Positions 13,740-55,481 of a stretch of DNA of 64,000 nt are shown piece by piece (positions within the stretch are counted from its first letter, which is position 1; each line of letters begins with the position of its first letter). The DNA is taken from positions 1 through 64,000 of the IMG/VR virus record IMGVR_UViG_3300042691_038651; one strand, given 5' to 3'. Under the pieces are notes generated by a model that worked only from the letters and a program-made list of their open reading frames with translations, was not told the origin of the DNA and made no database searches. A program made the translations under genes and the position numbers. The DNA is from a virus.

Positions 13740-14054
13740 ATGAAACATATAAACACCTTTGAGTCATTCATAAACGAGGCATACCGTCAGGTTCCTTACA
13801 ATGCAAAAATCTCTGGCAAATACGAAATTACCATAGACGGAAAGAACCTGGTTACAAATGTAGCTGGATTCGAGAGACAAGACGATGACAACGATTCTCT
13901 CTATTTTATGGATGATGATCCGCTCAAAGCTGAGCATGGAAGTTTTATCGTTAAAAATAGCGATATGATAAAACTATCAAAAGGTGCTACTGTGAATGCT
14001 GTTTGTTCTAAACACGGTAAACCAGCAAAAATCAAAAGAGTAGGAGATCTGTGA
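13740..14054 (+). CDS. CTS-leader protein
   Basis: MKHINTFESFINE|A. Confidence 0.7.
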   Translation: MKHINTFESFINEAYRQVPYNAKISGKYEITIDGKNLVTNVAGFERQDDDNDSLYFMDDDPLKAEHGSFIVKNSDMIKLSKGATVNAVCSKHGKPAKIKRVGDL

Positions 14055-14404
14055 AACACATACACACATTTGAAAGCTTTTTGAACGAGGCAAAACTTAA
14101 TGAGTATGGAGCCAAACCATCAGCAGATAACTGGTTAGGTTGGTTTGTGCTAACAGGCAATTTGCGTGGAGATTTGAATGCGTGGAAAAAAGGAGAGCTG
14201 GTTAAGGCACACACATCAGATGACAAAGACTATGTTTTTGTGGTAACAGGCGATACCAATTACGAGGCTTACGATGATATCGCAAAAGCTGACTTTGATA
14301 AAATTGCTGAGCCGCTAAATAAAGACAAGCACAAAAAGTCTTACAACTACGTACAGAAATTGAAAAAGCTAAACCAACTAAAAGATTGGGAAGCAATTGA
14401 CTAA
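14051..14404 (+). CDS. CTS-leader protein
   Basis: GTG start, MKHIHTFESFLNE|A. Confidence 0.7.
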   Translation: MKHIHTFESFLNEAKLNEYGAKPSADNWLGWFVLTGNLRGDLNAWKKGELVKAHTSDDKDYVFVVTGDTNYEAYDDIAKADFDKIAEPLNKDKHKKSYNYVQKLKKLNQLKDWEAID

Positions 14405-18381: not shown

Positions 18382-18720
18382 ATGAAACACATACACACAT
18401 TTGAAAGCTACATAAATGAATCTCATTACGCTTTCTTAGGAGGAAATTCCAATTTCACGGATGATGAAATGCGCAAAAATGTAGTCGACAAAGTATTGGG
18501 GAAAAAATATGATGCATACATCATGTTTGACGACGATGCACCAAAAGGAGAATATGACAAGATGAAAGCCAAATACGCTGCAAATACAGATGGGTGGGAA
18601 ACAATTTGGAGATCACAGTCATATCAAGGAGAAGCACGTCTTTCACCTGACAAGAAAGTTATTAAAGCAAGCATTTTTGGAAAAGGCGGAATCATCGGGG
18701 CCATCTATGTAAAGAAATAA
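18382..18720 (+). CDS. CTS-leader protein
   Basis: MKHIHTFESYINE|S. Confidence 0.7.
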   Translation: MKHIHTFESYINESHYAFLGGNSNFTDDEMRKNVVDKVLGKKYDAYIMFDDDAPKGEYDKMKAKYAANTDGWETIWRSQSYQGEARLSPDKKVIKASIFGKGGIIGAIYVKK

Positions 18721-25384: not shown

Positions 25385-25401
25385 TGAACTTCTTTTTCAA
25401 T

Positions 25402-25755: not shown

Positions 25756-26626
25756 GCTATTTGAGCAATTCATATTGGAAAGTGGTAATAGCGTAGACGG
25801 AGCAATTCCGTTTAAGCAAGACCAGGTAATGCCTACCGTTGATTGGGTAGTCAAAAACATTTTTCCGGAGCTTGGTCTTGTAGGACTTGACGATGATTCA
25901 GCAATTCTTGGTAGCGCTGGAAAAAAATTAGCTGACCAGACCAGCGGAGACGTTGATTTGGCAGTATCGGCTGACAAGATTGCAGGACACTTAGGCGTAT
26001 CTCTAGATAAAACATTATTTGCTCTAAACGATAAACTAAAGAGCATGGGATATTCTACCAAAATGGCGGTAGGATTCAACCAGGTGAGTATTGGCGTTCC
26101 TATTGCAGGAGATCCTAAAAATGGAGTTGGCCAATTAGACTTTATGCTATCCACTGACCTGGATTGGAGCAAATTCATTTATCATTCACCCGACTTCCGC
26201 GCTGCGGAGTCAAAATACAAAGGAGCTTACCGTAACCTGTTGCTCATGGCAACAATTGGCAAGTCATTCTTTGAAATCACCAAATCAACAGATAAAGGCG
26301 AGGTTGCTGAATACAAAGCATACGTTGTCCGCCTTAATCAGGGTATTGTGGAAGTTCGTAAGTCTTTCGAAGGAAAAAAAGGACTTGTGAAAACTGCACA
26401 GCTACTTAAACAATACGACAAAGAAATCACACGAGAACCACAAAAAGTGGTAGACCTTCTATTTAATGGAGGGCACAAGCCGTCTGACATCGATACCTAC
26501 GAAAAGCTATTGTCATTACTACAATCCGGAGACTTCAAATATCCGAACGTAATGAATGATATCTTATCCGACTTCAAAGGTAAGCTGGAAGACGCTGGGC
26601 TTCCTCTACCTGAAGGCCTCGGATAA
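25742..26626 (+). CDS. Pol-beta-type nucleotidyltransferase with CTS leader
   Basis: MKYVKLFEQFILE|S; LGSAGKK...SGDVDLAV (GS...DxD); third Asp in QLDFM. Confidence 0.7.
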   Translation: MKYVKLFEQFILESGNSVDGAIPFKQDQVMPTVDWVVKNIFPELGLVGLDDDSAILGSAGKKLADQTSGDVDLAVSADKIAGHLGVSLDKTLFALNDKLKSMGYSTKMAVGFNQVSIGVPIAGDPKNGVGQLDFMLSTDLDWSKFIYHSPDFRAAESKYKGAYRNLLLMATIGKSFFEITKSTDKGEVAEYKAYVVRLNQGIVEVRKSFEGKKGLVKTAQLLKQYDKEITREPQKVVDLLFNGGHKPSDIDTYEKLLSLLQSGDFKYPNVMNDILSDFKGKLEDAGLPLPEGLG

Positions 26627-26636
26627 ATAAGATATC

Positions 26637-28313: not shown

Positions 28314-28341
28314 AGATATATAGCAAAAATAAACTAGACAA

Positions 28342-28677
28342 ATGAGCCAAGTACTTTCATATGATCAATTTTTGAATGAGGCACTTCTTGTTGTAAAGAG
28401 AAAATACACGGACTTGCATCCGGAAAAGAAAGTTTCTAACTATGCTCCAGTAAGAGAACGCGTTCTCTCATTTATCAAGGAAAAAGGATCTGTCTCTGAA
28501 AAAGAGTTGCAGGAATTTCTCCGAATGATGAATGAAGAAACTGGGCGCAAGACAACAATGGGATGGGTGAAGGCCAATGATAAGTTTTTCACTGTCAAAA
28601 ATAACGAGGGTGAAAAAATGTATTCGCTTTCTAAAGATGGACATCGAGTTCACGATAAACTAACCTCAATTAAGTAA
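28342..28677 (+). CDS. CTS-leader protein, winged-helix-like
   Basis: MSQVLSYDQFLNE|A; RERVLSFIKEKGSVSEKEL...YSLSKDG. Confidence 0.6.
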   Translation: MSQVLSYDQFLNEALLVVKRKYTDLHPEKKVSNYAPVRERVLSFIKEKGSVSEKELQEFLRMMNEETGRKTTMGWVKANDKFFTVKNNEGEKMYSLSKDGHRVHDKLTSIK

Positions 28678-28859
28678 TGAAAAGTTTTGGAGAGTTCAAA
28701 GAAAAAATTGCAATTGAGGAAGCTCTAATTCCTGAGCTTAAAGAAATCCTCAAACATTTTGATGAAGCAGCAAACAAGGCCGAAGAGATGAACATGAAAC
28801 AGACTTTACAGGCTATTGAAAATGCTCGTCAAGAAATCATAACATTAAGCGGTAAATAA
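28677..28859 (+). CDS. small CTS-like protein
   Basis: MKSFGEFKEKIAIEE|A. Confidence 0.55.
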   Translation: MKSFGEFKEKIAIEEALIPELKEILKHFDEAANKAEEMNMKQTLQAIENARQEIITLSGK

Positions 28860-29374
28860 TGCCAGCAGTTTCACAAGCACAGCAAAAGCTCATGGGCATG
28901 GCTTACGCTCTTAAAAAGGGAGAAATGAAGCCGGAAGAAGCCAGCCAAGAGGTAATAGACCTGGCTGACTCTATGACGCTTAAACAGCTGAAAGATTTTG
29001 CAGAAACCAAGCACAAAGGTCTTCCAAAGAAAAAACACGTAGATGAATACGGATTCTTTTGGTGGGACACGCAATCACAACAAGCAGCATACCAAGCTGC
29101 CGCAAGTAAAAGAGACCAAACGGATCCATTAGTTCAAAGCTTTATAGATTTTGTAGCAGGAAAGAATAAAGACAGGGTAAAAGAAGTTGAAGAAAATTTT
29201 GCTGCACCCGCAGCAAGCGTTACAAACACCCCAGGTATGGGTAACGTGGATGCACCAGCCGTAGGCAAGGTGGGAAGCGGTGATACCTTCGGTGCCACAT
29301 CAGGTCGAAAAAAGAAGAAACGTAAAGGATCTACTAACGGCTATGATGAGTGGCTAAAAATCAGAATGTCATGA
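28859..29374 (+). CDS. DUF3008-like protein (from recall)
   Basis: MPAVSQAQQKLMGMAYALKKGE...SMTLKQLKDFAETKHKGLP. Confidence 0.6.
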   Translation: MPAVSQAQQKLMGMAYALKKGEMKPEEASQEVIDLADSMTLKQLKDFAETKHKGLPKKKHVDEYGFFWWDTQSQQAAYQAAASKRDQTDPLVQSFIDFVAGKNKDRVKEVEENFAAPAASVTNTPGMGNVDAPAVGKVGSGDTFGATSGRKKKKRKGSTNGYDEWLKIRMS

Positions 29375-29375
29375 G

Positions 29376-29522
29376 ATGGCAAAGGCTGCAAAAAAATCGG
29401 AAGTAAGATCATTTGTTCGTAAGACAAGAAAAAAATTAGGAAGACACGCAAAAAAGGACACTCCTAATAAGAAAGCAAAAAACTACAAAAAAGGCTATGT
29501 AGGCCAAGGAAAAAGAAGATAA
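29376..29522 (+). CDS. very basic 48-aa protein (absent from ORF track)
   Basis: MAKAAKKSEVRSFVRKTRKKLGRHAKKDTPNKKAKNYKKGYVGQGKRR*; fits the intergenic gap. Confidence 0.6.
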   Translation: MAKAAKKSEVRSFVRKTRKKLGRHAKKDTPNKKAKNYKKGYVGQGKRR

Positions 29523-29526
29523 GGGA

Positions 29527-30129
29527 GTGGATACATCAATCATATCAACCATCATCACGACCTTTGGGTCAATCATTGTAGCTCTAATCACCGTGGTAGT
29601 GAAGACAAAATTAGACGCAAGAAAAGCCAAGACCGAGAAAGAGAAAGAAGAAGTGATCGATGAGGCTGGCGTTGAAGAAATGGTGTTGGTGCAGGACTGG
29701 CTACACGATTTTCGACAAAAGTACGAGTTTGACCGTGTAGGTATCTTCCAATTTCATAATGGAGGAAAATTCTTTCAAGGCAAGAGCATGAAGAAGTTTT
29801 CCATGACTTATGAATCAGTAGCCCCAGGCTACGAAAAAATCAAGAGGACGCAGCAAAATGTGTTGGCCTCTGAATATCCACAATGGATTAGCAATATGTT
29901 AAAGAAGAAGTGTTTTGCTAACATTGTATCTGAATTAGACCCGCAATCACGAGTAGAGCTTGAAGCTCTTGGAATACAGCAATTTGTAACCGTTCCAATC
30001 TATTGTCTGAAAGGCGCTCTCATCGGGTTTATTGTCGGCTACAATATAGGTGAAATAGATGATGCAATCAAAAGCAAATTTGTGCCTTTAGTAGAAGACT
30101 CAAAATTTGTTTCAGGTTACATCGCATGA
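29527..30129 (+). CDS. membrane protein with N-terminal TM and GAF-like domain, putative holin (T4 T-like architecture)
   Basis: TM IISTIITTFGSIIVALITVVV; DRVGIFQFHNGG; VPIYCLKGALIGFIVGY. Confidence 0.5.
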   Translation: MDTSIISTIITTFGSIIVALITVVVKTKLDARKAKTEKEKEEVIDEAGVEEMVLVQDWLHDFRQKYEFDRVGIFQFHNGGKFFQGKSMKKFSMTYESVAPGYEKIKRTQQNVLASEYPQWISNMLKKKCFANIVSELDPQSRVELEALGIQQFVTVPIYCLKGALIGFIVGYNIGEIDDAIKSKFVPLVEDSKFVSGYIA

Positions 30130-30293
30130 AAACACTCCTAAAAAGCAAAAGGCAAAAACTAGTGGATTGGATCAAATCCAAAAGAACTAACAACAAAAAG
30201 ACAGTTGTTAAACAAAAAATAGACGATGAAGGTTTAAGACTCTTGAGAGAGTATTACATCGACAAAGACGACGAAACACATCTGTTCATATGA
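30126..30293 (+). CDS. small hypothetical protein (55 aa, absent from ORF track)
   Basis: MKTLLKSKRQKLVDWIK...THLFI*, with ATGA overlaps on both sides. Confidence 0.5.
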   Translation: MKTLLKSKRQKLVDWIKSKRTNNKKTVVKQKIDDEGLRLLREYYIDKDDETHLFI

Positions 30294-30541
30294 AACACTT
30301 GCATACATTTGAAAGTTACCTGAATGAAGGTACCACAGCATCGAGTTGGAGCAAAGCTCAGCTCGACAAAGAACTAAGAGAACTTTCACAAGGAGCTAAA
30401 GATGCCGGAGACATCGATGATTCAATGGCTTTTGACATTGCAGATGGGTGGATCATGGATAACCCAGGAGTAGAGATGGCAATCAAAAAACATTACGGTG
30501 CATCTGATGCACAAGGTTTTGTTGCAAATAGAATAGCATAA
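30290..30541 (+). CDS. CTS-leader protein
   Basis: MKHLHTFESYLNE|G. Confidence 0.7.
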   Translation: MKHLHTFESYLNEGTTASSWSKAQLDKELRELSQGAKDAGDIDDSMAFDIADGWIMDNPGVEMAIKKHYGASDAQGFVANRIA

Positions 30542-30542
30542 T

Positions 30543-30887
30543 ATGAGCCACGTAAAACTATACGAAGAATTCCTTTGGGACCAAATTTGGGAAGCCGAAG
30601 ATGAAGACAAGCAGTCAACCGACCGTTCTCCTCTTGATAGCGAAGAACTTGAGACTGGTCTTAAAAATAAAGCCAAAGAATCTGGCTGTCCTATCGGAAT
30701 CATTCGCGCGGTAATGCGTCGTGGAATGGCTGCCTGGAAAAGTGGTCACCGTCCAGGTGCTGGCCAAGAACAATGGGGATACGCTCGTGTAAACTCATTT
30801 TTAACTGGTGGTAAAGGTACTTGGGGTAAAGCTGACAAGGATCTTGCAAAAGAGGCAAGAGATGCCGGGTTCAATCCAAAAAAGTAA
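30543..30887 (+). CDS. CTS-leader protein with DUF5824-like domain (from recall)
   Basis: MSHVKLYEEF; RRGMAAWKSGHRPGAGQEQWGYARVNSF. Confidence 0.65.
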   Translation: MSHVKLYEEFLWDQIWEAEDEDKQSTDRSPLDSEELETGLKNKAKESGCPIGIIRAVMRRGMAAWKSGHRPGAGQEQWGYARVNSFLTGGKGTWGKADKDLAKEARDAGFNPKK

Positions 30888-30941
30888 AAGGATAACACAA
30901 TGAAACACATACACACATTTGAAAACTTCTTGAATGAAGGC
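30885..30941 (+). repeat. 57-bp perfect direct repeat, copy 1 (upstream stop + spacer + CTS-coding sequence)
   Basis: taaaaggataacacaatgaaacacatacacacatttgaaaacttcttgaatgaaggc, identical at 31509..31565. Confidence 0.95.
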
Positions 30942-31235
30942 GTTAAGTGGAAACCTTCTAGAAATGAAAACGTTGAAGGATTTGTTGCAAAATCTTTTCC
31001 TCACGGAAAAAAAGGTGATGCACTATTATCCCGTGAAGAGTTCATCAAAAAATGGGAAGCGAGAATCGAATCATGGATTGGGGTAAAACCTAATCTGGCT
31101 GCGGTTAAAGAGTTTTTCACTAACAATGGACTAAACTTTGAATTTGTAGGAGCCGACGGCTATACTTACCGCATATACTCTCCAGGTGAAGGCCCTAGAT
31201 CTAAAGAGTACCACATACAAAAACTTAAAAAGTAA
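30900..31235 (+). CDS. CTS-leader protein
   Basis: MKHIHTFENFLNE|G. Confidence 0.72.
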   Translation: MKHIHTFENFLNEGVKWKPSRNENVEGFVAKSFPHGKKGDALLSREEFIKKWEARIESWIGVKPNLAAVKEFFTNNGLNFEFVGADGYTYRIYSPGEGPRSKEYHIQKLKK

Positions 31236-31238
31236 TAT

Positions 31239-31511
31239 ATGAAACACATACACACATTCGAAAGCTTCTTAAATGAAGGATATTCATCATCAGATATAAA
31301 CAAGTTAAAGGACTTTGCTAAAAAAGTTTCTGATGAAATCATAGCAGACTATGAAGGAGACAGCAAATTTGACAAAGAAGAATTCTCACCAGAGGCTATG
31401 TTTGACTACATATCAGACTGGGGGCAAACAAACAATATGTCAGCAAAAGATGTAATTGATGAATTTGTATGGTCAGAACTAACAGATGAATTAGGTTTGC
31501 CAAGAAATTAA
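31239..31511 (+). CDS. CTS-leader protein
   Basis: MKHIHTFESFLNE|G. Confidence 0.72.
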   Translation: MKHIHTFESFLNEGYSSSDINKLKDFAKKVSDEIIADYEGDSKFDKEEFSPEAMFDYISDWGQTNNMSAKDVIDEFVWSELTDELGLPRN

Positions 31512-31565
31512 AAGGATAACACAATGAAACACATACACACATTTGAAAACTTCTTGAATGAAGGC
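31509..31565 (+). repeat. 57-bp perfect direct repeat, copy 2
   Basis: Identical to 30885..30941. Confidence 0.95.
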
Positions 31566-31835
31566 AAAGCACAAGAATGGATTGTATTTCTTCCCATCGA
31601 AAAAGGAGACATCATCGACATAGAAAGCTCTCTGTTTGGGGTTTACAATGACGAGGAGTATGATAGAATAGCTCCATTTGACAAAGTAGGCAATTACACA
31701 ACTTCTTTATCTTTCCCTGATATGAAAGTTGCTAGAGAATACGCTGATCTTGTTAAAGACGCCAAAGGAGATATGAAATCTCCGGCTTTCAAAAAAGCAG
31801 ATGAGTTTGAAAAGAAAAACAAAATAGTTCGATGA
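31524..31835 (+). CDS. CTS-leader protein
   Basis: MKHIHTFENFLNE|G. Confidence 0.72.
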   Translation: MKHIHTFENFLNEGKAQEWIVFLPIEKGDIIDIESSLFGVYNDEEYDRIAPFDKVGNYTTSLSFPDMKVAREYADLVKDAKGDMKSPAFKKADEFEKKNKIVR

Positions 31836-32119
31836 AACACATACACACATTCGAAAGCTTTGTAAATGAAGGCGCGCCAACCAATACGGTTGAAGACATA
31901 ATAGACACTATTAAAGACGGCTTAGGATGGGCTACTCCTGATTATGTGCTACAAACTCCACTTAACAGGGCAGGTAGAATAGCATTGGCAATTAGGCTAG
32001 CAGAAATAGGTATTCTTTTTAATGATGATGATCTAGGCGATGATATGAATGTCAATCCGTTAAAAGACAAGAAGATTAAACCTATGTCTGTAGCAGACGC
32101 TAAAAAAGCAATACTGTAA
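31832..32119 (+). CDS. CTS-leader protein
   Basis: MKHIHTFESFVNE|G. Confidence 0.72.
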   Translation: MKHIHTFESFVNEGAPTNTVEDIIDTIKDGLGWATPDYVLQTPLNRAGRIALAIRLAEIGILFNDDDLGDDMNVNPLKDKKIKPMSVADAKKAIL

Positions 32120-32120
32120 G

Positions 32121-32393
32121 ATGAAACACATAAGCACATTTGAAAGCTTTTTGAATGAAGGCAATTATAGCCTACAAAGTATCGACGACGCAACTGTTGA
32201 AGAGTTCGAAAAAGACTGGAACAGTGGATCTAAAATCGGCGGGTTATTAAAGCTGATCAAAGCTGCCACTGGAAAAGACATATCAGATATTCCAGAGAAG
32301 GCTGTAGAAGAGTTTGATAAAATTGTTGGCGGAGGAATAAAGGCTTCGCCAGCAGCAATCAAGATTCTTGATGTTCTAAACAAATACGCATAA
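32121..32393 (+). CDS. CTS-leader protein
   Basis: MKHISTFESFLNE|G. Confidence 0.72.
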   Translation: MKHISTFESFLNEGNYSLQSIDDATVEEFEKDWNSGSKIGGLLKLIKAATGKDISDIPEKAVEEFDKIVGGGIKASPAAIKILDVLNKYA

Positions 32394-32394
32394 G

Positions 32395-32628
32395 ATGAAA
32401 CACATTAGCACATTTGAGAATTTCCTCAACGAGGAACATCCATACTACAAGGGCATCAGCAAAAGTACTGAGACCAAGAAGAAGGCTCAAATGGCTGACC
32501 AGGCTGCTGCGGATGATGATGATCCCGATGCTTACAAAGAGCTGCCTGGAGATAAAAAAGGAAAGAAGCTCCTAAAAACTTCTAAGCACACCAAGACATA
32601 TCACGAACTTTACGGAGACAAGAAATAG
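32395..32628 (+). CDS. CTS-leader protein
   Basis: MKHISTFENFLNE; YYKGISKST...DDDDPDAYKELPGD...KTSKHTK. Confidence 0.7.
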   Translation: MKHISTFENFLNEEHPYYKGISKSTETKKKAQMADQAAADDDDPDAYKELPGDKKGKKLLKTSKHTKTYHELYGDKK

Positions 32629-32657
32629 AAAAGCGGCCCGAAAGCCGCTTCTTTTTT
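32628..32657. terminator. intrinsic, probably bidirectional terminator
   Basis: aagcggc-ccgaaa-gccgctt followed by a T-run, between convergent genes. Confidence 0.85.
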
Positions 32658-32672
32658 GTGGTTTGAGAGTTC

Positions 32673-33032
32673 TTACAGAATGCTGATGTTACGAGCATTC
32701 TTCTTTTTCTCGGTCGAGAAATGGATTGAGAGAATGCCAGACTCCAGTTTTGCCTGAACCGTTTCAGCGTCCAGGTATTCAACGTTGTAGCTCTTGCGAA
32801 CTCTCTTATTCAAGAACTTGGGCAGTTCTCTCTCGGTAGATGCTTCCAAAATAAGTTCATCTCCTTCAGTACGAACGGTCACTTCCTCCTTGGTAAAACC
32901 AGGCAGAAGAACATCTAGCGCATAGCCGTTCTCGGTCTGACGGATCTCAGTTTTGGAATAGGTTGACGAGTTGTGGTTTGCAAACTCAAACAAATCGTCC
33001 ATTGCATTGAAGATTGATGTTGTTTTGTACAT
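32673..33032 (-). CDS. small heat-shock protein (Hsp20/alpha-crystallin)
   Basis: LDVLLPGFTKEEVTV, AKLESGILSIHF; only convincing minus-strand gene in the window. Confidence 0.88.
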   Translation of the reverse strand: MYKTTSIFNAMDDLFEFANHNSSTYSKTEIRQTENGYALDVLLPGFTKEEVTVRTEGDELILEASTERELPKFLNKRVRKSYNVEYLDAETVQAKLESGILSIHFSTEKKKNARNISIL

Positions 33033-33331
33033 AGTATTTTTTGTTTTTTGGTTTGTTTACAGTATATTGTAACAAAACTGTGCCAGACCGTTAAACCGGA
33101 AAGATTGTCATATGCAAGTGAACTTGTAGTGACTCTTTGTCATTGCTATAGACTATTTTCCTCCAACCGATCTGATATCTATTTTATACAACCCAGACAA
33201 AAAGTTTCACAGTGATTACTATATTGATCACTACACGGGAAAAAGCCTCACTGTGAACAATATATTGTACATTGAGAAAACCAGTTTCAACCTGTGAATA
33301 TAAGATCAAATTCAAAATAATATAGACATAA

Positions 33332-33823
33332 ATGATTAAGTACAGCAAACTTCGAGACGTAAAGTCGCCGTCTCGAGGTACATCGCAGTCCGCAGGAGTG
33401 GACTTTTTTGTTCCTAACGATTGGAACGGCGGTGAACCTCGACCAGTATTACCTGGCGACCGTGTCTTGATTCCAAGCGGAATCAAGGTAAGCATCCCAA
33501 CAGGGTATGCGCTAATTGCATTCAATAAGAGTGGAGTGGCATCTAAAACAGGATTGATCGTTGGTGCTTGCGTGGTAGATGAAGACTACCAAGGCGAGGT
33601 TCACATCAATATGATCAATACCAACACGGAGAAGGAATACTTCTCGGATGGCCACTATGTAAAAGACAGCGGAATTGTTACCATAACTCCAGGAGAGAAG
33701 CTGGTTCAGTTCTTGTTAGTACCCATCAATTATGCTGGGCTACAGGAATTGCCAATTGAGGAATTATACACTGCGACAACTGAACGCGGTGACGGAGGAT
33801 TTGGATCAACAGGAACGCTATGA
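33332..33823 (+). CDS. dut: dUTPase (trimeric)
   Basis: SAGVDF, NKSGVA, VVDEDYQGE, GEKLVQ, RGDGGFGSTG. Confidence 0.95.
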   Translation: MIKYSKLRDVKSPSRGTSQSAGVDFFVPNDWNGGEPRPVLPGDRVLIPSGIKVSIPTGYALIAFNKSGVASKTGLIVGACVVDEDYQGEVHINMINTNTEKEYFSDGHYVKDSGIVTITPGEKLVQFLLVPINYAGLQELPIEELYTATTERGDGGFGSTGTL

Positions 33824-35193
33824 TAGACATCGAACAAAGAGACTCAACCCTGCAAATTTCATACTTTGACAGGGAAGGCGAAATTGCCATCAAAAAGTTT
33901 CTCATTCCAGCAAATGAAATGTTTGAATGGGAGTACTGTGATGCCCGTGATAAGTATGCAGAACCTGGCATAACTAGCTGGGATGGCAAACCAGTCCGTA
34001 AACGCAAGACAAAGTTCTTGAGTAAGTGGAGGCTGGAAGAATACCTCTATTCTCTTCCCGAAGAGGAAACAAATGACATTTATGAATTCAACATTCCTAA
34101 AAAGTTCTTTGTGGATATTGAGGTAGAGGTGACTGACGAATGGCCAAAACCGGAAACAGCCAAGTTTCCAGTTACAACGGTTGCTTTCTGTAGAGATAAC
34201 CGTGTAATTGTAATGGGAACCAAGCCGCTGTCGGCTGACCAAATTGCATCAATCGGAAAGCGCATCAATGATTACCTGAAAGAGGAAGTTGACTTTAGCT
34301 ATATGTACTTCAAATCTGAGTATGATATGCTATACACATTCTTCCATAAGGCTCTTCAGAAGATGCCAGTAATTACAGGATGGAACTTCGTAGGTTTCGA
34401 CTGGACGTATCTTATCAATCGCTGTAAGCGTTTAGGTATTGATCCTTCCGTCGCTTCTCCATCTCGTAAACTCTCTGGTCAATCCGAACTTCCACAGCAC
34501 AGGTTGGTAGTCGATTACCTGGATGTCTATAAGAAATGGGACCGCCAAATTGATGTCAAGGAAAACAATACTCTTGACTGGGTTGCTAAAGCAGCGCTTG
34601 GAATTCAAAAGGTAAAATATCCCGGAACATTACAAGAACTCTATGAATCTGACTTTGACCAATACGTATTCTACAATGCGGTGGATGCCAAGTTAGTACA
34701 GATGATTGACCGAAAGTTAAACTCACTGCTTACTTTCCTTAAGCTTGGACATATTTCCAAAGTGGAAGCAACCCGAGCGTATTCACCAATCTGGATGGCG
34801 GAAGGTGCAATGGCAAGAGAAAACTGCCGTCGGAACCGGGTATTTCCAAAAGCCGACACTTCCAAAAAACGCAGAGAAGCCTATGAAGGTGCATTTGTTC
34901 ATGAACCAAAAACTGGATTGTATCAGTGGGTTACATCATTCGACTTTGCTTCTCTATATCCAACGGTAATGAGGCAGTGGAACATTTCACCTGAGAGTTA
35001 CATCAAAAATCTGGCACCTGGCGAAGAGATTGATCTGGAAAAATACATCAAAACTGCATCGGGCGCGGTATTCTCAAGAGAGGAATCCGTCTTTACCAGC
35101 ATCTTGGTGGAATACTACGGAAAGCGTAAACAGGCCAAGAAAATCTCTCAGGACATAGAAAGAGAAATTGCTGAGTTGCAAAAATATATATGA
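33820..35193 (+). CDS. family B DNA polymerase, N-terminal subunit (exonuclease + motif A)
   Basis: DIEV (ExoI), GWNFVGFD (ExoII), YNAVD (ExoIII), SFDFASLYP; ends in the fingers after KRKQAKK. Confidence 0.92.
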   Translation: MIDIEQRDSTLQISYFDREGEIAIKKFLIPANEMFEWEYCDARDKYAEPGITSWDGKPVRKRKTKFLSKWRLEEYLYSLPEEETNDIYEFNIPKKFFVDIEVEVTDEWPKPETAKFPVTTVAFCRDNRVIVMGTKPLSADQIASIGKRINDYLKEEVDFSYMYFKSEYDMLYTFFHKALQKMPVITGWNFVGFDWTYLINRCKRLGIDPSVASPSRKLSGQSELPQHRLVVDYLDVYKKWDRQIDVKENNTLDWVAKAALGIQKVKYPGTLQELYESDFDQYVFYNAVDAKLVQMIDRKLNSLLTFLKLGHISKVEATRAYSPIWMAEGAMARENCRRNRVFPKADTSKKRREAYEGAFVHEPKTGLYQWVTSFDFASLYPTVMRQWNISPESYIKNLAPGEEIDLEKYIKTASGAVFSREESVFTSILVEYYGKRKQAKKISQDIEREIAELQKYI

Positions 35194-49460: not shown

Positions 49461-50693
49461 ATGGCAAAAGAATTCTCTTTCAATGATCTCGACGAACAGC
49501 TCACCAAGATTAGTCCTAAAGGCTCTGTAATCTCCGCAAACTCTTACTCAAGAATTGACGAATGGATTAGCACGGGTAACTACCTGCTTAATGCACAATT
49601 AAGCGGTTCGCTCTTTGGTGGCATTCCAAACAGTCGTTCAATCTGCTTGGCCGGTGAATCCGGAACAGGCAAAACTTTCTTGGCTCTCAACATCTGTCGC
49701 GAGGCTCAACTCATGGGTTACAATATCATCTATTGCGACTCCGAGGCTGCGGTTGACCAGGACGTAATTCAAAACTTTGGCGTGGATCCGGATTCATTCC
49801 GTTACCAACCAGTAAGTACACCACTTGAAGTAAGACAATTTGTTGCACACCTTTGCGACCAATTGAAAAAGGCAAAAGACGCAGGCAAAGCTCTGCCAAA
49901 GGTTATGCTGGTACTCGACTCACTTGGAAACCTGGCCACTACAAAGGAACGTGCTGATGCAATCAGCGGATCCGATAAACGCGATATGACCAAGCAACAA
50001 GAACTTCGTTCATTGTTCCGCGTAATCACAGCTGACTTGGCCGAGCTAAAGATTCCTTTCGTCTTTACCAACCACACATATGCAACCATCGGTTCATACG
50101 TACCTGGCCAAACAATCTCAGGTGGTGGTGGCGCAATCTATAACGCGTCAGTTATTCTACAGCTTTCTAAGGCTGGATTGAAGGAAGATGGTACCAATAA
50201 GACTGGTATCATTGTAACCTCTAAACCCGCAAAGAATCGTTTTGCTCGTCCGCTTCCTATCAAGTTTCACATCAGTTTCTACAAAGGTATGAATCCCTAT
50301 GTTGGTCTTGAACAATTCCTTAGCTGGAAAAATTGTGGAGTTCAACGTGGTAAGTTGCTTACTGAGAAGGAATTCCAAAAGTACTACAAGGAGGACAATC
50401 CAAAGTACCAAGAGGTTCTTGAGACAGAAATCAGCAGAACTGCCGAGGACGGTACAGTTGAAAAGTTCTACCTCGAGGCAAAAGAAACTGCACGAACTAT
50501 CGCAGTTGCTCACCTGTTCGACGTAATCAAGCCACAAGAACTCTTTTCTTCAAAGGTGTTCACCAAGGATATGCTTAAGAAACTGGATGAAAACTTTATC
50601 CAAACAATGTTTAAGCTTCCAAATGTATCCACACTCGGCGACATTGAAAATGACGAAATCTCTGAAATGATATCCGATGAGTCTGAAGATTGA
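49461..50693 (+). CDS. uvsX: UvsX/RecA recombinase
   Basis: ISTGNYLLN, AGESGTGKT, DSE, LDSLGNL, TNHTY, SGGGG. Confidence 0.93.
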   Translation: MAKEFSFNDLDEQLTKISPKGSVISANSYSRIDEWISTGNYLLNAQLSGSLFGGIPNSRSICLAGESGTGKTFLALNICREAQLMGYNIIYCDSEAAVDQDVIQNFGVDPDSFRYQPVSTPLEVRQFVAHLCDQLKKAKDAGKALPKVMLVLDSLGNLATTKERADAISGSDKRDMTKQQELRSLFRVITADLAELKIPFVFTNHTYATIGSYVPGQTISGGGGAIYNASVILQLSKAGLKEDGTNKTGIIVTSKPAKNRFARPLPIKFHISFYKGMNPYVGLEQFLSWKNCGVQRGKLLTEKEFQKYYKEDNPKYQEVLETEISRTAEDGTVEKFYLEAKETARTIAVAHLFDVIKPQELFSSKVFTKDMLKKLDENFIQTMFKLPNVSTLGDIENDEISEMISDESED

Positions 50694-52294: not shown

Positions 52295-52720
52295 ATGGCA
52301 AAAGAAGACAAAATCTTTAACAACCGGTACAACACTGGTGAAATCAGCTACGAGCCGTTTCCCAAAATGCGTATCGATCTGCCTGAGAACTTCGACATAT
52401 TGGAAGAATATCAAGCTCACGAGCTACAAAAAGTATTGCTGGAAATCTTCCAAGCTGCTCCATTTTTTGAAACGCTTACCAATAATCGCAAAGTTCCCAA
52501 AGGCGAATCTTGCAAAATCTTCTATCACTTTGAAGATGAACTAAATAAAAGAGCGGATATGCGACTGATGGATAAGTTCATCATAGTAGCCGACTTTATG
52601 GAAATGAGTTACGAAGTACTCTACAAAGAAATCAGTATCAAACACAAAGAAACTCTTCTCAAAGAAATGGACGACGAATACGGCATATTCAAGAAGAGAA
52701 ACATACACAGATTGTTCTAA
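52295..52720 (+). CDS. hypothetical protein, possibly a gp33-like late co-activator
   Basis: The C-terminal helices weakly resemble gp33 (from recall). Confidence 0.3.
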   Translation: MAKEDKIFNNRYNTGEISYEPFPKMRIDLPENFDILEEYQAHELQKVLLEIFQAAPFFETLTNNRKVPKGESCKIFYHFEDELNKRADMRLMDKFIIVADFMEMSYEVLYKEISIKHKETLLKEMDDEYGIFKKRNIHRLF

Positions 52721-53808
52721 TGAAAATTGACGCAAAAAGAATTTGGCTAGTTAGTGATACCCATCTGGGTGTCAGGTCCAACTCGAGAGAGTGGATGGAT
52801 AACATTGAGTCGTACTTCCGTGAATTCTTTATGCCCACAATTAAGAAGCATTATCAGCCTGGAGATGTGGTGGTACACTGCGGCGATGTATTTGATTCGC
52901 GGCAGTCCATCAACCTCTACATCATGAACAAAGGAATTTCCATTTTCGAAGACTTGGCAGAAATCTTGCCGGTCTATATGATTATTGGAAACCATGACAT
53001 CTTTATGAAGAGTTCAAATGAAATCAATTCGTTGAAAGTCTTCAAGAACAGCAAGAACATTACCATTTTTGAGGAACCGCAAAAGGTAAAGTTTGGTCCA
53101 CGGACTGCTCTAATGATGCCGTGGCGAGAAAATCACCACGCGGAAGCTGAGGTGCTTAACGACCCAGCCAATTTTGCTGACCTGGTATTTTGTCACACTG
53201 ATGTAAAAGGCTTTACTTTTAACAAGATGCAGAGAATTGAAGACGGTAATGATGCTGACACATATGAAAAGTATCAACGCGTCTACTCAGGGCATATTCA
53301 CTGGGCACAGAAGTTTAAGAACATACGAATGCTGGGTTCTCCTTATCAGCTCACGAGAAGCGATAACGGAAATACCAAAAGCATTTGGCTGCTTGACCTG
53401 GAAACTCTAGAAGAAACCCAGTTTGAAAACACGCATTCTCCAAAGTTTGTTCGTTTCAAACTTGATTGGTTGCTGGAACAGCCAATGGAACACATACAGT
53501 CTCTGTTTGAAAACAATTATGTAGATATCATGGTTGATGCAACCTGGTCTACATGGTTCCCGTTCTCAATTTTCACAGAGGCGTTTACAGGCTATCGCAA
53601 AATCAACTACATCATTACTACCACTGATTCAGAATCAGAAGATGGCGATCTACCAGTAGAAAATGAGGAAATCAATCTCCTGAAAATGATTGAGCTTCAT
53701 ATTGAAAGTCTTCCTTACAATGAAGGTTTGAAAGAAAAGCTCACAAAAGTATCAACACAGATCTACAATAAGATCTCACAAAACCTAAGCAGAGGCTCAA
53801 CCGAATGA
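52720..53808 (+). CDS. Mre11/SbcD-like nuclease (gp47)
   Basis: SDTHLG, GDVFD, GNHD, SGHIH, GSPYQ. Confidence 0.93.
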   Translation: MKIDAKRIWLVSDTHLGVRSNSREWMDNIESYFREFFMPTIKKHYQPGDVVVHCGDVFDSRQSINLYIMNKGISIFEDLAEILPVYMIIGNHDIFMKSSNEINSLKVFKNSKNITIFEEPQKVKFGPRTALMMPWRENHHAEAEVLNDPANFADLVFCHTDVKGFTFNKMQRIEDGNDADTYEKYQRVYSGHIHWAQKFKNIRMLGSPYQLTRSDNGNTKSIWLLDLETLEETQFENTHSPKFVRFKLDWLLEQPMEHIQSLFENNYVDIMVDATWSTWFPFSIFTEAFTGYRKINYIITTTDSESEDGDLPVENEEINLLKMIELHIESLPYNEGLKEKLTKVSTQIYNKISQNLSRGSTE

Positions 53809-55481
53809 AGATAAAAAGCATAGAGTGGAAAAACTTTAACTCGTACGGAAACCGTATGCAGAAAATTGCATTTGATGCAAATCAAGGCGCATTTTATGTA
53901 GTGACGGGACATAACGGCGCAGGTAAGTCTACTATCTCAGACGTCATCAAATATGGATTGTACGGAAGACTCGATAACAAGAAAAACCGTGACATTCCAA
54001 ACCGCTTCAACGGAAATATGTTTGTCCGTGTAGTGGTAGAAAAAATGCCAGGTGTTGAGGCAACCATTGAACGTGGATTGGCCCCAAACTTCTTTAGGCT
54101 TTACATCAACGGCAAGGAATATGACCAGGCCGGTAAAAGAAATGTACAAGACTACCTTGAAGAGGAAATCTTGGGAATGCCATACTACATTTTCAACAAC
54201 ATCGTTTCACTCTCAATCAATGACTTTAAGTCATTCCTGGGAATGAGCCCGGCAGACAAGCGCCAAATCATTGATAAGCTATTTGGATTGGAAATGCTTG
54301 CTCACCTACGTTGGTATGTGAAAGAGCACCTCAAAGGAATCCGTGAAGGCATTTCCAATGTGGAAACTGAGATTGCCGTTTTGGAACGCACAATTGAAAA
54401 GTCCAACTCGGAATTAGAACTTCTATATGAAAAACTTAAGTCAGCTGATGAAGAAAAGAAAGTTCAGCTTATTGAAGGTATTCAAAAAGTTCAAGGATAC
54501 ATTGCCGAGGCTGACAAACGCCTGAGTGAAATTGAGGAAAAAGATGGATCCCTACGAGATGCACTACGGGAATGGAATAAAAAACTTACAGACAAGCAGT
54601 ATGAGTTAAGAGCAAAACGCGAAAAGGACTCCCTCTACAAAAATGATTGCTGTCCTACCTGTGGTTCTGACCTGCACACCGACTATCACAAAACCTTAAT
54701 GGAGGAAAACGCCGAAGAAATCAAAATGATTGAAGGTGAACTTGTTTCTATCAAGGAGTCTGTGAAAACTCTGGAAGAAAACGGTAAGAAGATAACCGAG
54801 ATTCGTACCGACCTCAGTGGAAAGAAATCTGCGGCCAAGCAAAAAATAGCAACTCTGCAAAGAGACCTAAGTCTCCTGTCCGATGATGATGTAAAGGATG
54901 AGCAAACCGGTTCTCTGAAAAGCATTATCGATGATTCCGAAACCAAGAAAATTGATGCTTTAAAGAAGAAGGACGAAGAAGAGAAGAAATCAAACTTCTA
55001 CAAAATCATTGAAGAGATATTTGGCGACCGTGGCGTAAAACTGTCTGCTATCAAAAGAATTGTACCAGTGCTCAATCAGGAAATACGCAAAGTTTTGAAA
55101 GAATTGAACGTGGACTACCGTGTATCTTTTGAGGAAGACTTCAGCGTAAAGATTCTACACATGGGATATGATGTATCGGCTGACCAGCTGAGCACTGGCG
55201 AAAGAAAGAAGATCGACTTTGCTGTAATCATTGCTCTGATTCGCATCATGAAGATTAAGTTTCATGGCCTAAACCTCATCTTCCTAGATGAAATCTTCTC
55301 CTCAATTGATAGCGATGGTATTTGGCACATCCTTAAAGTACTATCCAATGCTTCCAAGGAGCTTGGCCTACATACCTTTGTAATTAACCACAGCAATCTA
55401 CCAACCGAAGTATTTGACTACAGAGTAGAAATTGAGAAGAAAAACGGCTTTTCTGAACTAAATGTTGAGGCAGTAAGCTAA
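53805..55481 (+). CDS. Rad50/SbcC-like ATPase (gp46)
   Basis: KNFNSYGN, GHNGAGKST, Zn hook CPTCG, LSTGE, FLDEIF. Confidence 0.95.
   Translation: MKIKSIEWKNFNSYGNRMQKIAFDANQGAFYVVTGHNGAGKSTISDVIKYGLYGRLDNKKNRDIPNRFNGNMFVRVVVEKMPGVEATIERGLAPNFFRLYINGKEYDQAGKRNVQDYLEEEILGMPYYIFNNIVSLSINDFKSFLGMSPADKRQIIDKLFGLEMLAHLRWYVKEHLKGIREGISNVETEIAVLERTIEKSNSELELLYEKLKSADEEKKVQLIEGIQKVQGYIAEADKRLSEIEEKDGSLRDALREWNKKLTDKQYELRAKREKDSLYKNDCCPTCGSDLHTDYHKTLMEENAEEIKMIEGELVSIKESVKTLEENGKKITEIRTDLSGKKSAAKQKIATLQRDLSLLSDDDVKDEQTGSLKSIIDDSETKKIDALKKKDEEEKKSNFYKIIEEIFGDRGVKLSAIKRIVPVLNQEIRKVLKELNVDYRVSFEEDFSVKILHMGYDVSADQLSTGERKKIDFAVIIALIRIMKIKFHGLNLIFLDEIFSSIDSDGIWHILKVLSNASKELGLHTFVINHSNLPTEVFDYRVEIEKKNGFSELNVEAVS

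What the first reader, a model, noticed from the sequence alone, without database searches (positions are those of the whole stretch)
30885..32440. DNA-level leader repeats suggest cassette-like shuffling of cargo genes
Seen: a perfect 57-bp repeat at 30885..30941 and 31509..31565 covers the upstream stop codon, the spacer and the full leader, and identity ends at the predicted cleavage site (NE|G). Near-identical atgaaacacatacacacatt(t/c)gaaa starts occur at 14051 (GTG), 18382, 31239 and 31832. Six short genes are packed head-to-tail here with 1-12 nt gaps or a 4-nt overlap. Inference: recombination between leader-coding repeats could insert, delete or swap cargo bodies. The array would then behave like an integrase-free cassette array in which each new body automatically gains a start site and a packaging tag.
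Basis: partly seen in the sequence, partly recalled or inferred. Interest (0 to 1): 0.8.

Follow-up and report, generated by a model that had tools for sequence, protein, structure and literature searches.

The report
Shuffled array of capsid-tagged phage genes
An uncultured freshwater relative of phage T4 carries a tightly packed row of unrelated small genes that all start with the same short, probably capsid-loading, tag; close relatives carry these genes in different numbers, orders and fusions, so the row behaves like a cassette array, though exchange through the tag's own DNA is shown only as one fresh 57-base copy.

Summary
The 57-bp repeat (30885-30941 = 31509-31565) is perfect, and the near-identical starts and head-to-tail packing are as described.

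The window is the first 64 kb of a 100.8-kb fragment of a T4-like jumbo phage. At least 23 genes start MKHIxTFExFLNE(G/A). This resembles the T4 capsid targeting sequence MKTYQEFIAE, which the gp21-type protease cuts after LxE.

Gene content and order are not fixed:
- Between the DUF5824 gene and the last array gene the window has five cassettes. One relative has one unrelated cassette. Another has a fusion.
- Contigs from another lake show order B-C-A instead of A-B-C, with gene 30290 precisely absent and A fused in frame to F by a leader-like linker.
- Leader genes are the variable class: 13 of 32 are unique, against 1 of 19 other small genes.
- The same bodies occur elsewhere behind different leaders, or fused behind internal leader-like linkers.

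The limits are these:
- Excess codon identity in leaders is equal within and between genomes, so there is no general homogenisation.
- Only seven leaders share 20-57 exact bases.
- The 624-bp deletion was not seen.

Modular exchange at the leader boundary is supported. Recombination through leader homology is plausible but unproven. This scan has noted similar leader arrays in other genomes.

The parts
30290..30541 (+). Leader gene (83 aa, MKHLHTFESYLNEG...). A cassette present in the window but absent from G001, G002 and the major strain of run X10.
   Evidence: joint 30287>30541, depth 43, 166-nt side; both boundaries lie in ATATGA at the starts of two leader genes.
30543..30887 (+). DUF5824 gene (114 aa), the conserved left anchor of the array. 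Its own leader is degenerate here (MSHVKLYEEFLWD) but canonical in G002 and many metagenome relatives.
   Evidence: PF19141, 1.8e-13.
30885..30941 (+). Copy 1 of the perfect 57-bp repeat: stop codon of the DUF5824 gene, 12-nt spacer with AAGGA, then leader plus Gly codon of gene A.
30900..31235 (+). Cassette A (111 aa). The body has no Pfam match. It lies after C in runs X8 and X10 and is fused to F in X10. Homologues elsewhere carry other leaders or are fused behind DUF3008.
31239..31511 (+). Cassette B (90 aa). It follows the DUF5824 gene directly in X10. Its leader shares 29 exact nt with that of E.
31509..31565 (+). Copy 2 of the perfect 57-bp repeat: stop codon of B, the same spacer, then leader plus Gly codon of gene C.
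   Evidence: In X8 and X10 the spacer here is 3 nt shorter (table 4).
31524..31835 (+). Cassette C (103 aa). The body is widespread: 48 protein clusters matched at E <= 0.01, the window's own among them. Leader variants differ among them, and one homologue sits behind another module with the linker ..FESEEFLNEG.
31832..32119 (+). Cassette E (95 aa), overlapping C by 4 nt. In the laid runs it was found only in window-like contigs of low depth. It occupies the slot that A holds in X8 and X10.
32121..32393 (+). Cassette F (90 aa). It stands alone here and in X8. In X10 it is fused in frame behind A through 9 codons (LAESELFLG) that replace A's stop and most of F's leader.
   Evidence: joint 31233>32157 with 26 inserted letters. 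Reading-frame check done by hand from the coordinates.
32395..32628 (+). Cassette H (77 aa, body EHPYYKGISK...), the conserved right anchor. It stands alone in G002. In G001 it is fused behind a 55-aa module with the junction FIVEEG|EHPYY.
32632..32657 (+). Intrinsic-terminator-like hairpin (AGCGGC / GCCGCT) with a T run that closes the array. No terminator or promoter lies between the cassettes.
   Evidence: Read directly. One search found no PeSL-like sites in 11000-30999.
14051..14092 (+). GTG-started leader of the tight group in the upstream array. It shares 24-27 exact nt with leaders 18382, 30900 and 31524.
18382..18720 (+). Leader gene (112 aa) of the tight group. Its orthologue in G002 (87% aa) lies in the other array, directly upstream of the DUF5824 gene.
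49461..50693 (+). UvsX-like recombinase, the phage's own homologous-recombination enzyme.
   Evidence: phrog_97, 5e-57.
52720..55481 (+). gp47/gp46-like (SbcD/SbcC-like) recombination nuclease pair.

Best explanation
The region is one operon-like, hypervariable array of T4-type internal-protein genes in an uncultured freshwater T4-like jumbo phage.

The tag (inferred). Each gene is a 13-residue N-terminal leader (MKHIxTFExFLNE) joined to an unrelated body. The leader is most likely a capsid targeting sequence. It would dock the protein in the prohead core and be removed by the gp21-type (Peptidase S77) prohead protease after the LxE motif.

The modules (shown). Leader and body are separable. 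Among close relatives, cassettes are present or absent, permuted, moved between arrays, or fused into two-module proteins whose linker is a leader relic that keeps the LxE site. In more distant phages the same body sits behind a different, local leader.

The 57-bp repeat (event shown, route inferred). It is a young DNA-level copy of stop codon, spacer and leader. A crossover or gene-conversion event between two leader regions made it. One possibility is insertion of the A+B segment at the leader of C, which would leave exactly such flanking repeats.

The mechanism (inferred). Exchange through leader homology, carried out by the phage's own UvsX and gp46/47 machinery, probably contributes only among the few leaders that share 20-57 identical bases. 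Microhomology or illegitimate events filtered by selection for intact tagged genes probably account for the rest.
For: Phage type: T4-like gp55, gp4, gp2, gp20, gp46/47, gp17, gp18 and UvsX.

Leader as capsid tag:
- The leader matches the T4 CTS MKTYQEFIAE (PMC8442874) at the residues that PMC9026906 reports as needed for targeting (4, 7) and processing (8, 10).
- The close relative G001 encodes Peptidase_S77 and a gp23-type capsid protein. That capsid protein's N-terminal region contains SLNE|G at residues 42-46.

Modularity:
- Bodies are unrelated to each other.
- Array content differs. The window has five cassettes, G002 has one unrelated cassette, and G001 has a fusion. DNA homology stops at 30939 and resumes at 32434, both leader ends.
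- Run X10, from another study and at depth 36-43, has the order D-B-C-A. Gene 30290 is deleted and A is fused to F through LAESELFLG-EG. Run X8 has C-A-F.
- Leader genes are enriched among genome-specific genes: 13 of 32 against 1 of 19, Fisher p = 0.008.
- The body of 18382 has moved to the other array in G002.
- Stand-alone and fused forms have linkers ESELVEA, NELDEA, ESANEA, IVEEG and FESEEFLNEG.
- Body A occurs behind three other leader types and behind DUF3008.

DNA-level copying:
- The 57-nt perfect repeat includes 12 unconstrained spacer bases.
- Seven leaders are 89% identical at the nucleotide level and 83% at the codon level, against a family background of 65-69% and 61-64%.

No other vehicle: no integrase or resolvase and no promoter/terminator cassettes between the genes.
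Against: - No proteomics or cleavage data exist. The protease and capsid genes lie outside this 100.8-kb fragment and are seen only in relatives.
- Codon identity at identical residues is equal within genomes (0.61-0.63) and between genomes (0.62-0.64). Orthologous leaders keep their own peculiarities across genomes (24851, 25742, 22711). Leaders are therefore not generally homogenised.
- Most leader pairs share only about 9 exact nt, which is little for homologous recombination.
- The 30290 indel has 6-nt microhomology. The D|B junction in X10 lies in the spacer, not in the leader.
- Alignments extend through conserved leaders under any mechanism, so breakpoints at leader ends are not diagnostic.
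- The window is a metagenome assembly. A 57-bp repeat in a mixed-strain sample is a place where assemblies can go wrong. However, the B-C adjacency is confirmed in X8 and X10. An exact-match contig in runs X1 and X2 (30900-31538) reaches only the first 15 nt of C's leader, so it does not add to that confirmation.
Confidence: 0.6

Rival explanations
1. The leader is only a protein tag, perhaps also an mRNA 5' element under selection, and plays no part in DNA exchange. Cassettes come and go by the generic illegitimate or microhomology recombination and horizontal transfer typical of T4-type hyperplastic regions. Selection keeps only events that preserve intact tagged genes, so junctions appear to sit at gene boundaries. 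The 57-bp repeat is a chance by-product of one local event.
For: - Within-genome and between-genome codon identity are equal.
- Orthologous leaders evolve vertically.
- The median exact match between leaders is 9 nt against 7 nt in controls.
- There is 6-nt microhomology at the 30290 indel and a spacer junction in X10.
- The same 29-nt leader DNA occurs in phages with no other DNA similarity. This fits nucleotide-level constraint.
- Some genes without leaders also vary.
Against: - The 57-nt identity includes an unconstrained spacer, so at least one exchange or copy event did occur between leader regions.
- A tight group of seven leaders stands well above the family background.
- Leader genes are far more variable than neighbouring genes of similar size without leaders.
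- Fusion linkers are leader relics in five independent cases.
Confidence: 0.3
2. The 57-bp repeat and the A-B-C order are an assembly artefact, a chimera of co-existing strains joined at a shared leader.
For: - The source is a metagenome.
- Several strains with different cassette orders co-occur. X10 holds a major rearranged strain and a minor window-like strain.
- Unitigs break inside the repeat (table 8).
Against: - An exact-match contig in X1 and X2 covers 30900-31538, that is A, B, the spacer and the start of C's leader.
- The B-C adjacency is also present in the X8 and X10 strains.
- G001 has the same leader directly after the DUF5824 gene, 39 of 40 nt identical.
Confidence: 0.05
3. The array arose by tandem gene duplication followed by divergence. 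The leaders are simply the best-conserved part of paralogues.
For: Leader types alternate N, S, N, S in genes A-E, with similar spacing (339 and 308 nt; 624 and 593 nt).
Against: - All 21 body pairs score at shuffle level (z from -1.5 to 2.6), and blastp finds nothing.
- Bodies that had diverged beyond recognition cannot keep 57 nt, including a spacer, perfectly identical without later DNA exchange.
- Bodies A and C each have their own conserved homologue families.
Confidence: 0.03
4. The conserved N-terminus is not a capsid targeting sequence. It would be another signal, such as a translation-initiation or regulatory RNA element, or a tag for another compartment or partner.
For: - Codon choice in the leader is conserved beyond amino-acid need across genomes.
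- About 35 tagged genes is far more than the three IPs of T4.
- The tagged set includes a nucleotidyltransferase, a ferritin-like protein and a weak ATP-grasp match.
Against: - The residues that matter in the T4 CTS are the conserved ones (PMC9026906).
- The same LNE|G motif lies in the capsid protein's N-terminal region in G001.
- Leader-like sequences occur inside proteins as linkers, where a translation-start role is impossible.
Confidence: 0.12

Closest known systems
Internal protein (IP) loci of T-even phages with the capsid targeting sequence (Mullaney and Black 1996; Repoila et al. 1994, as described in PMC3012670, PMC9026906, PMC12373910, PMC4122927)
   Same: - A short conserved N-terminal leader ends in (L/I)xE on otherwise unrelated small proteins.
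- The phage is T4-type with a gp21-type protease.
- The loci vary in number, order and identity of genes among related phages.
- A shuffling mechanism for the 'IP palette' was proposed for T-evens without a mechanism being detailed (PMC4122927).
   Different: - The leader is 13 residues here, not 10.
- There are about 23-35 tagged genes, not 3 per genome. (More than 30 variants are known across all T-evens, PMC2839356.)
- Cassettes are packed with -4 to +12 nt between them and have no promoter or stem-loop elements of their own.
- Two-module fusions with leader-relic linkers occur.
- A perfect leader-plus-spacer DNA repeat is present.
- Packaging and cleavage are untested here.
PeSL-mediated modular shuffling in T4-type phages (Arbiol et al. 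2010, PMC2839356; Comeau et al. 2014, PMC4122927)
   Same: - Gain, loss and replacement of small ORFs in hyperplastic regions occur without an integrase.
- They occur by recombination between short repeated sequences that flank each ORF.
- The predicted products are deletions and mini-circles.
   Different: PeSLs are intergenic early-promoter-plus-terminator cassettes. None is present in this array. The only shared sequence here is the coding leader, plus a 12-nt spacer in one pair. PeSL mini-circles were shown by inverse PCR. Nothing comparable has been shown here.
Integron gene-cassette arrays
   Same: A one-directional array of promoterless, unrelated small ORFs is expressed from outside. 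Each ORF is bounded by a repeated element, and content varies between relatives.
   Different: There is no integrase. No attC-type structured site was searched for. The repeat is translated and supplies the start codon and a protein tag.
Processed head and ejection proteins of giant phages such as SPN3US and phiKZ-like phages (PMC5694885, PMC7411985, PMC10052503)
   Same: Many head-internal proteins are cleaved by a prohead protease at a short motif ending in Glu. Their propeptides are proposed to act in targeting.
   Different: Those are a different phage lineage with different cleavage contexts. The papers read do not report a shared N-terminal leader encoded as DNA repeats, or a cassette-like variable array.

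Membership tests
T4-type CTS-tagged internal proteins | An N-terminal propeptide of about 10 residues, with aromatic or hydrophobic targeting residues and (L/I)-x-E at its end | tested here: met
   23 genes. F/Y is invariant at position 7, and F or Y stands at position 10 in all but one leader (22711 has Phe at 9 and 10). Positions 11-13 are mostly L/I/V-x-E. These align to residues Y4, F7, I8 and E10 of MKTYQEFIAE (PMC8442874, PMC9026906).
T4-type CTS-tagged internal proteins | The phage encodes a gp21-type (Peptidase S77) prohead protease and a gp23-type capsid | tested here: inconclusive
   Neither is present in the 100.8-kb fragment, which CheckV rates 35% complete. Both are present in the close relative G001 (PF03420 4e-14; PF07068 2.9e-22). 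G002 has a partial gp23 at its contig end.
T4-type CTS-tagged internal proteins | Mature parts unrelated to one another | tested here: met
T4-type CTS-tagged internal proteins | Proteins are encapsidated, cleaved after the leader and injected | not testable with these tools
   This needs virion proteomics or a reporter fusion. Indirect support only: SLNE|G in the G001 capsid protein and LxE-ending internal linkers.
T4-type CTS-tagged internal proteins | Loci polymorphic in number, order and identity among related phages | tested here: met
PeSL modular shuffling | ORFs flanked by conserved sigma-70-like early promoter plus stem-loop terminator cassettes | tested here: not met
   40 promoter-like sites against 40.6 expected. 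No + strand terminator lies between cassettes. Gaps between cassettes are -4 to +12 nt.
PeSL modular shuffling | Recombination products (deletions, mini-circles) detectable between flanking repeats | tested here: inconclusive
   contigs show no 624-bp deletion joint. Contigs drop rare variants and raw reads were not available.
Integron-like cassette array | Site-specific tyrosine recombinase (IntI) next to the array | tested here: not met
   no PF00589 or PF00239 match in G000, G001 or G002 (all partial genomes).
Integron-like cassette array | attC-type imperfect inverted-repeat recombination sites between cassettes | not tested
   Gaps of 1-12 nt between genes leave no room for such sites. 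No formal search was run.

The most novel reading that the evidence does not exclude
The leader-coding DNA itself acts as the attachment site of an integrase-free cassette system. Segments or small circles bounded by leaders are excised and reinserted at any other leader by the phage's UvsX-type recombination. Any captured body then instantly gains a start codon, a capsid-loading tag and a protease site. Imprecise events create cleavable polyproteins. The phage population would thereby keep a shared, rapidly reshuffled pool of injected proteins.
Probability: 0.25. Interest if true: 0.75.

Novelty: new variant of a known kind. Interest (0 to 1): 0.55.

Why it matters
Injected internal proteins are T4's first-minute counter-defence. 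Ip1, Ip2 and Ip3 each block a different GmrSD-type restriction enzyme (PMC12373910).

This phage group appears to run the same strategy on a much larger scale, with about 23-35 tagged genes in 64 kb. The comparison of relatives shows how the repertoire turns over. Whole tagged modules are added, dropped, permuted, moved between arrays and fused, always at the tag or cleavage-site boundary.

Three things follow:
- It gives a sequence-only way to list candidate packaged or injected proteins in uncultured phages.
- It gives a concrete, testable model for how such arsenals diversify without an integrase.
- It yields a natural set of leader and linker variants that could guide the design of cargo loading in T4-type capsids.

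The specific claim that the coding leader is the recombination substrate would extend the PeSL idea from regulatory DNA to translated DNA. That claim still needs read-level or experimental proof.

Tried and rejected
- Public phage genomes. blastn of 29500-34000 against INPHARED gave only 92-nt hits at 75% to Methylophilales phage Melnitz. No cultured close relative was found.
- Search for the 624-bp deletion or circle. Logan contigs of four runs were laid on 29500-33900 and no 30941|31566 joint was listed. All runs are contigs, which drop rare variants, so this says nothing either way.
- Short-sided joints in run X2 (for example 31552>32136 and 31567>32173, sides 24-39) were not used. They may be leader repeats from other organisms.
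- Search for the X10 fusion linker (26 nt) in IMG/VR found no match.
The genomic contexts of P0003 and other homologues could only be reached through the search for related loci.
- Neighbour-conservation test across 91 loci (0.15-0.29 for leader clusters against about 0.45, p = 0.057). This was discarded. Single-linkage clustering chained the DUF5824 gene, gene H and many others into one 156-member cluster through multi-module proteins.
- The T4 late promoter TATAAATA occurs once, against 2.3 expected. The sigma-70 and terminator scan shows no PeSL-like elements in the arrays. The promoter of the array was not identified.
- Tandem duplication with divergence was rejected.
- General concerted evolution of leaders was rejected. 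Codon identity is equal within and between genomes.
- Repoila et al. 1994 (PMC395341) is not held. Its content is cited only through later papers.
- No paper describing large CTS-like leader arrays in uncultured T4-like phages was found in three searches. That is not proof that none exists.
Full report
**1. What the window is.**
The window is bases 1-64000 of a 100,842-bp IMG/VR virus record that CheckV rates about 35% complete. PHROG matches identify several T4-type genes:
- a gp55-type late sigma factor, gp4 head closure, gp2 end protector and gp20 portal;
- gp46/gp47-like nuclease and large terminase;
- tail sheath, UvsX-like recombinase and DnaB-like helicase;
- a DNA polymerase split into two genes.

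It is therefore a fragment of a T4-like phage of roughly 290 kb. Almost all genes lie on the + strand. Sequencing runs that hold the region are labelled freshwater, aquatic, or (oddly) 'fungus metagenome'. No cultured close relative exists in INPHARED.

**2. The observation.**
The repeat 30885-30941 = 31509-31565 is exact over 57 nt, and the exact match extends no further on either side. It consists of a TAA stop, the 12-nt spacer AAGGATAACACA, and 14 codons MKHIHTFENFLNEG. With two mismatches the similarity reaches 66 nt.

The near-identical starts at 14051 (GTG), 18382, 31239 and 31832 are real. So is the packing, with gaps of +12, +3, +12, -4, +1 and +1 nt.

The family is larger than the finding states. 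23 genes in the window fit a strict leader pattern, all on the + strand, and roughly 35 fit with looser variants. None lies in bases 64001-100842.

The bodies behind the leaders are unrelated. blastp finds nothing within the array, and all 21 local alignments of the seven bodies score at shuffle level, with z from -1.5 to 2.6. Pfam recognises only DUF5824 (30543), a cytidylyltransferase-like domain (17802), a ferritin-like domain (23264), DUF3008 (28859) and a weak ATP-grasp match (19359).

**3. What the leader probably is.**
The T4 capsid targeting sequence is MKTYQEFIAE (PMC8442874). Mutational work summarised in PMC9026906 places targeting mainly at residues 4 and 7, and processing at residues 8 and 10.

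Aligned as MK---TYQEFIAE against MKHIHTFENFLNE, those four residues correspond to positions 7, 10, 11 and 13 of the present leader:
- F or Y at position 7 in all 23 leaders;
- F or Y at position 10 in all but one (22711 has Phe at 9 and 10);
- mostly L, I or V at position 11;
- E at position 13 in 21 of 23.

The fragment itself lacks the head module. The closest relative, G001 (DNA polymerase 86% identical), encodes a Peptidase_S77 domain (4e-14) in a 631-aa protein, and a gp23-type capsid protein. The N-terminal region of that capsid protein contains SLNE|G at residues 42-46, the same motif that ends the leaders. It also contains several further (L/I)xE sites.

Leader-like peptides also occur inside proteins as linkers between modules (section 5). 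This fits a protease site and does not fit a translation-start element. I put the capsid-tag reading at about 0.8. No cleavage or packaging has been measured.

**4. Are gene order and content fixed among relatives?**
No. Two IMG/VR contigs, G001 (142.9 kb) and G002 (202.5 kb), are syntenic with the window. Core proteins are typically 70-95% identical.

Content of the slot between the DUF5824 gene (D, 30543) and the last array gene (H, 32395):

| Genome | Content |
|---|---|
| Window | five cassettes: A 30900, B 31239, C 31524, E 31832, F 32121 |
| G002 | one unrelated 86-aa cassette |
| G001 | a single gene: leader, a 55-aa module, the junction FIVEEG, then the H body |

At the DNA level, G001 homology runs from D through the next leader and stops at 30939. 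It resumes at 32434. Both points are leader ends.

Gene 30290 is absent from both relatives. The upstream array (13023-14862) holds five or six genes in the window, one small module in G002 and none in G001.

The body of 18382 has moved. Its G002 orthologue (87% identical) lies in the other array, directly upstream of D.

Among genes of 60-300 aa in the stretch shared by all three genomes:

| Class | No orthologue in either relative | Orthologue in both |
|---|---|---|
| Leader genes (32) | 13 | 12 |
| Other genes (19) | 1 | 16 |

Fisher p is 0.008 for the first column and 0.0015 for the second.

**5. Nearer relatives in sequencing runs.**
Logan contigs of four runs were laid on 29500-33900. 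Runs X1 and X2 hold exact-match contigs. These break inside the 57-bp repeat, as expected for k-mer assemblies. One contig covers 30900-31538 without a difference, and so spans A, B, the spacer and the start of C's leader.

Run X10 is a freshwater metagenome from another study. It holds a major strain at depth 36-43 and about 90-95% identity, on contigs of 1072 and 2073 nt. That strain differs from the window as follows:
- Gene 30290 is precisely missing (joint 30287>30541). Both boundaries lie in ATATGA at the starts of two leader genes.
- B follows D directly (30887, then CATAA, then 31237).
- A follows C (31831>30900). 20 nt at the joint are ambiguous because they are the shared leader start.
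- A's stop codon and the first 12 codons of F's leader are replaced by 26 other letters. In frame these read LAESELFLG, followed by F's own E-G-N-Y-S. A and F therefore form one protein joined by a leader-like linker.

Run X8 has C-A-F with A and F separate. E was seen only in low-depth, window-like contigs.

The cassette order is thus D-A-B-C-E-F-H in the window and D-B-C-A(~)F-H in strains about 5-10% diverged.

**6. Modules behind other leaders, and fusions.**
Homologues of body A (64-84% identical) carry several N-termini:
- MKHINTFESFLNEG;
- MIKTYKEYINEEFINEA;
- MKNLHTFEEFLFESKA;
- MKLSELRQIIREEVKRALNEG;
- MKKLSLRLAIHAIIKEEVNAIMKEA.

Similarity always begins at VKWK/IKWK, just after the (L/M)xE motif.

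In contig L132, neighbouring genes carry the same alternative ..IIKEEV..L..E type of N-terminus. Body A there wears the local leader. In L131 and P0005, body A is fused behind a DUF3008 protein and a complete internal MKNLPTYENFINE leader is retained.

Body C matches 48 protein clusters, the window's own among them, with varied leaders. One homologue lies behind another module with the linker ..LLVFESEEFLNEG.

Within the three genomes, four further modules occur either alone with a leader or as the C-terminal module behind ESELVEA, NELDEA, ESANEA or LLESEGVLNE.

Leader and body are therefore separable evolutionary units. The boundary is the putative cleavage site.

**7. Is leader DNA more alike than amino-acid constraint predicts, and does that show recombination?**
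At positions with identical residues, codons are identical in 61% of comparisons among the 23 leaders. Genome codon usage predicts 47% (simulation sd 1.9%, maximum 52%). In the seven-gene array the figure is 69% against 45%.

The same excess is seen between non-orthologous leaders of different genomes (0.62-0.64) as within genomes (0.61-0.63). Orthologous leaders also keep their own peculiarities across genomes. Most of the excess is therefore a family-wide property, either shared descent or nucleotide-level constraint. It is not ongoing homogenisation.

A 29-nt leader stretch even occurs exactly in viral contigs that share no other DNA similarity with this phage.

What stands out is a tight group of seven leaders in this genome: 14051, 18382, A, B, C, E and F. 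They are 83% identical at the codon level and 89% at the nucleotide level. This group was picked for its similarity, so the contrast is descriptive only.

Longest exact matches between leader regions:

| Pair or set | Exact match (nt) |
|---|---|
| A/C | 57 |
| B/E | 29 |
| 14051/18382 | 27 |
| Rest of the tight group | 14-25 |
| Median of all leader pairs | 9 |
| Median of control gene starts | 7 |

The A/C repeat includes 12 spacer bases under no protein constraint and abuts unrelated bodies. It must therefore be a recent DNA-level copy made by a crossover or by gene conversion. Insertion of a segment carrying the A body and gene B at the leader of C by a single reciprocal exchange would leave exactly such flanking repeats. 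I cannot reconstruct the actual history.

**8. Mechanism and its limits.**
No tyrosine or serine recombinase is found in 446 kb of the three partial genomes. The arrays hold no promoter or terminator cassettes of the PeSL kind. The phage has UvsX and gp46/47.

Exchange through leader homology is thus possible for the tight group, and the A/C repeat documents one such event. Three points weaken it as a general mechanism:
- Alignments run through conserved leaders whatever caused an indel.
- One indel has only 6-nt microhomology.
- One junction lies in the spacer, not in the leader.

The predicted 624-bp deletion was not seen. Only contigs could be examined, and contigs cannot show rare variants.

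I therefore rate 'modular exchange at the leader boundary' as shown. I rate 'homologous recombination in the leader as the main driver' at about 0.3-0.4.

**9. Comparison with what is known.**
The closest known system is the T-even IP loci. These have unrelated proteins with a shared CTS and loci that vary in number, order and identity. A shuffling process was proposed for them without a mechanism being detailed (PMC3012670, PMC9026906, PMC12373910, PMC4122927).

The closest known mechanism is PeSL-mediated shuffling with mini-circles (PMC2839356). It uses intergenic regulatory cassettes, which are absent here.

The new elements are these:
- the scale of the tagged set;
- the operon-like packing, in which the translated leader is the only repeated sequence;
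- the direct strain-level evidence for permutation;
- the recurrent fusion and fission through leader-relic linkers.

This scan has flagged comparable leader arrays in several other uncultured T4-like genomes. Those notes are unchecked. I found no paper describing them.

**10. Verdict.**
- Observation: confirmed.
- Interpretation: partly supported.
- Novelty: new variant of a known kind.
- Interest: about 0.55.

Noticed in passing
window 33820-35193 and 48261-49445: The family-B DNA polymerase is split into two genes 13 kb apart. The N-terminal exonuclease half matches phrog_2062/262. The C-terminal half matches phrog_1918 and phrog_262 positions 498-839. The same split is present in G001 and G002.
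   Followed up: partly
window 62957-64000 (the ORF runs on to 64261 of the record): A 434-aa protein after the portal region carries long 9-nt-periodic repeats encoding Gly-X-Y, collagen-like runs (GTS, GSS, GTA). Its G002 counterpart is far longer (ORF 145395-149795).
   Followed up: no
window 32673-33032, minus strand: An Hsp20-type small heat-shock protein gene (phrog_432, 7e-11) is the only clear minus-strand gene in the region. It lies between the array terminator and the dUTPase-like gene. G002 appears to keep it, while G001 has a different gene before the polymerase.
   Followed up: partly
window 12251-12592 and 12596-13021: Two tandem paralogues (246-nt repeat, 77% identical) begin MKKFSEWIG(S/T)VREA, a looser leader variant. 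G001 and G002 each have one copy.
   Followed up: partly
window 23264-23833: A ferritin/Dps-like protein (PF00210, 2e-19) starts with a loose leader (MTQVKTFSESLKKRSINEA). If the tag works as proposed, a ferritin-like protein would be packaged.
   Followed up: no
window 17802-18380: A cytidylyltransferase-like protein (PF01467, 2.5e-7) with the GRFQPFHxGH motif carries a canonical leader. It is conserved with its leader in G001 and G002.
   Followed up: partly
L125, L129, L130 (IMG/VR contigs of 54-103 kb) and L126/L127: The same 29-nt leader DNA occurs in other viral contigs that share no other nucleotide similarity with this phage. There it heads a small protein with the body ..QDIKVGDTVGNAVQGFN. 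A similar module (QDVQVGDSANV) is the extra N-terminal module of the G001 fusion gene. One of these contigs also carries a DnaK-like gene.
   Followed up: partly
G002 (reverse-complement coordinates 30565-32370): A 601-aa protein with a leader, then at least two internal leader-like linkers (LLESEGVLNE and FQTFEEFVNE). One of its modules is homologous to window gene 21492. It looks like a multi-module cleavable polyprotein.
   Followed up: partly
window 30543-30887 compared with G002 and loci L045-L124: The DUF5824 protein has a degenerate leader here and in G001 (MSHVKLYEEFLWD). In G002 and most metagenome relatives it has a canonical one (for example MKHISAFESF, MKHIHTFESFLNEA). More than 500 metagenome stretches, freshwater and marine, encode relatives.
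   Followed up: partly
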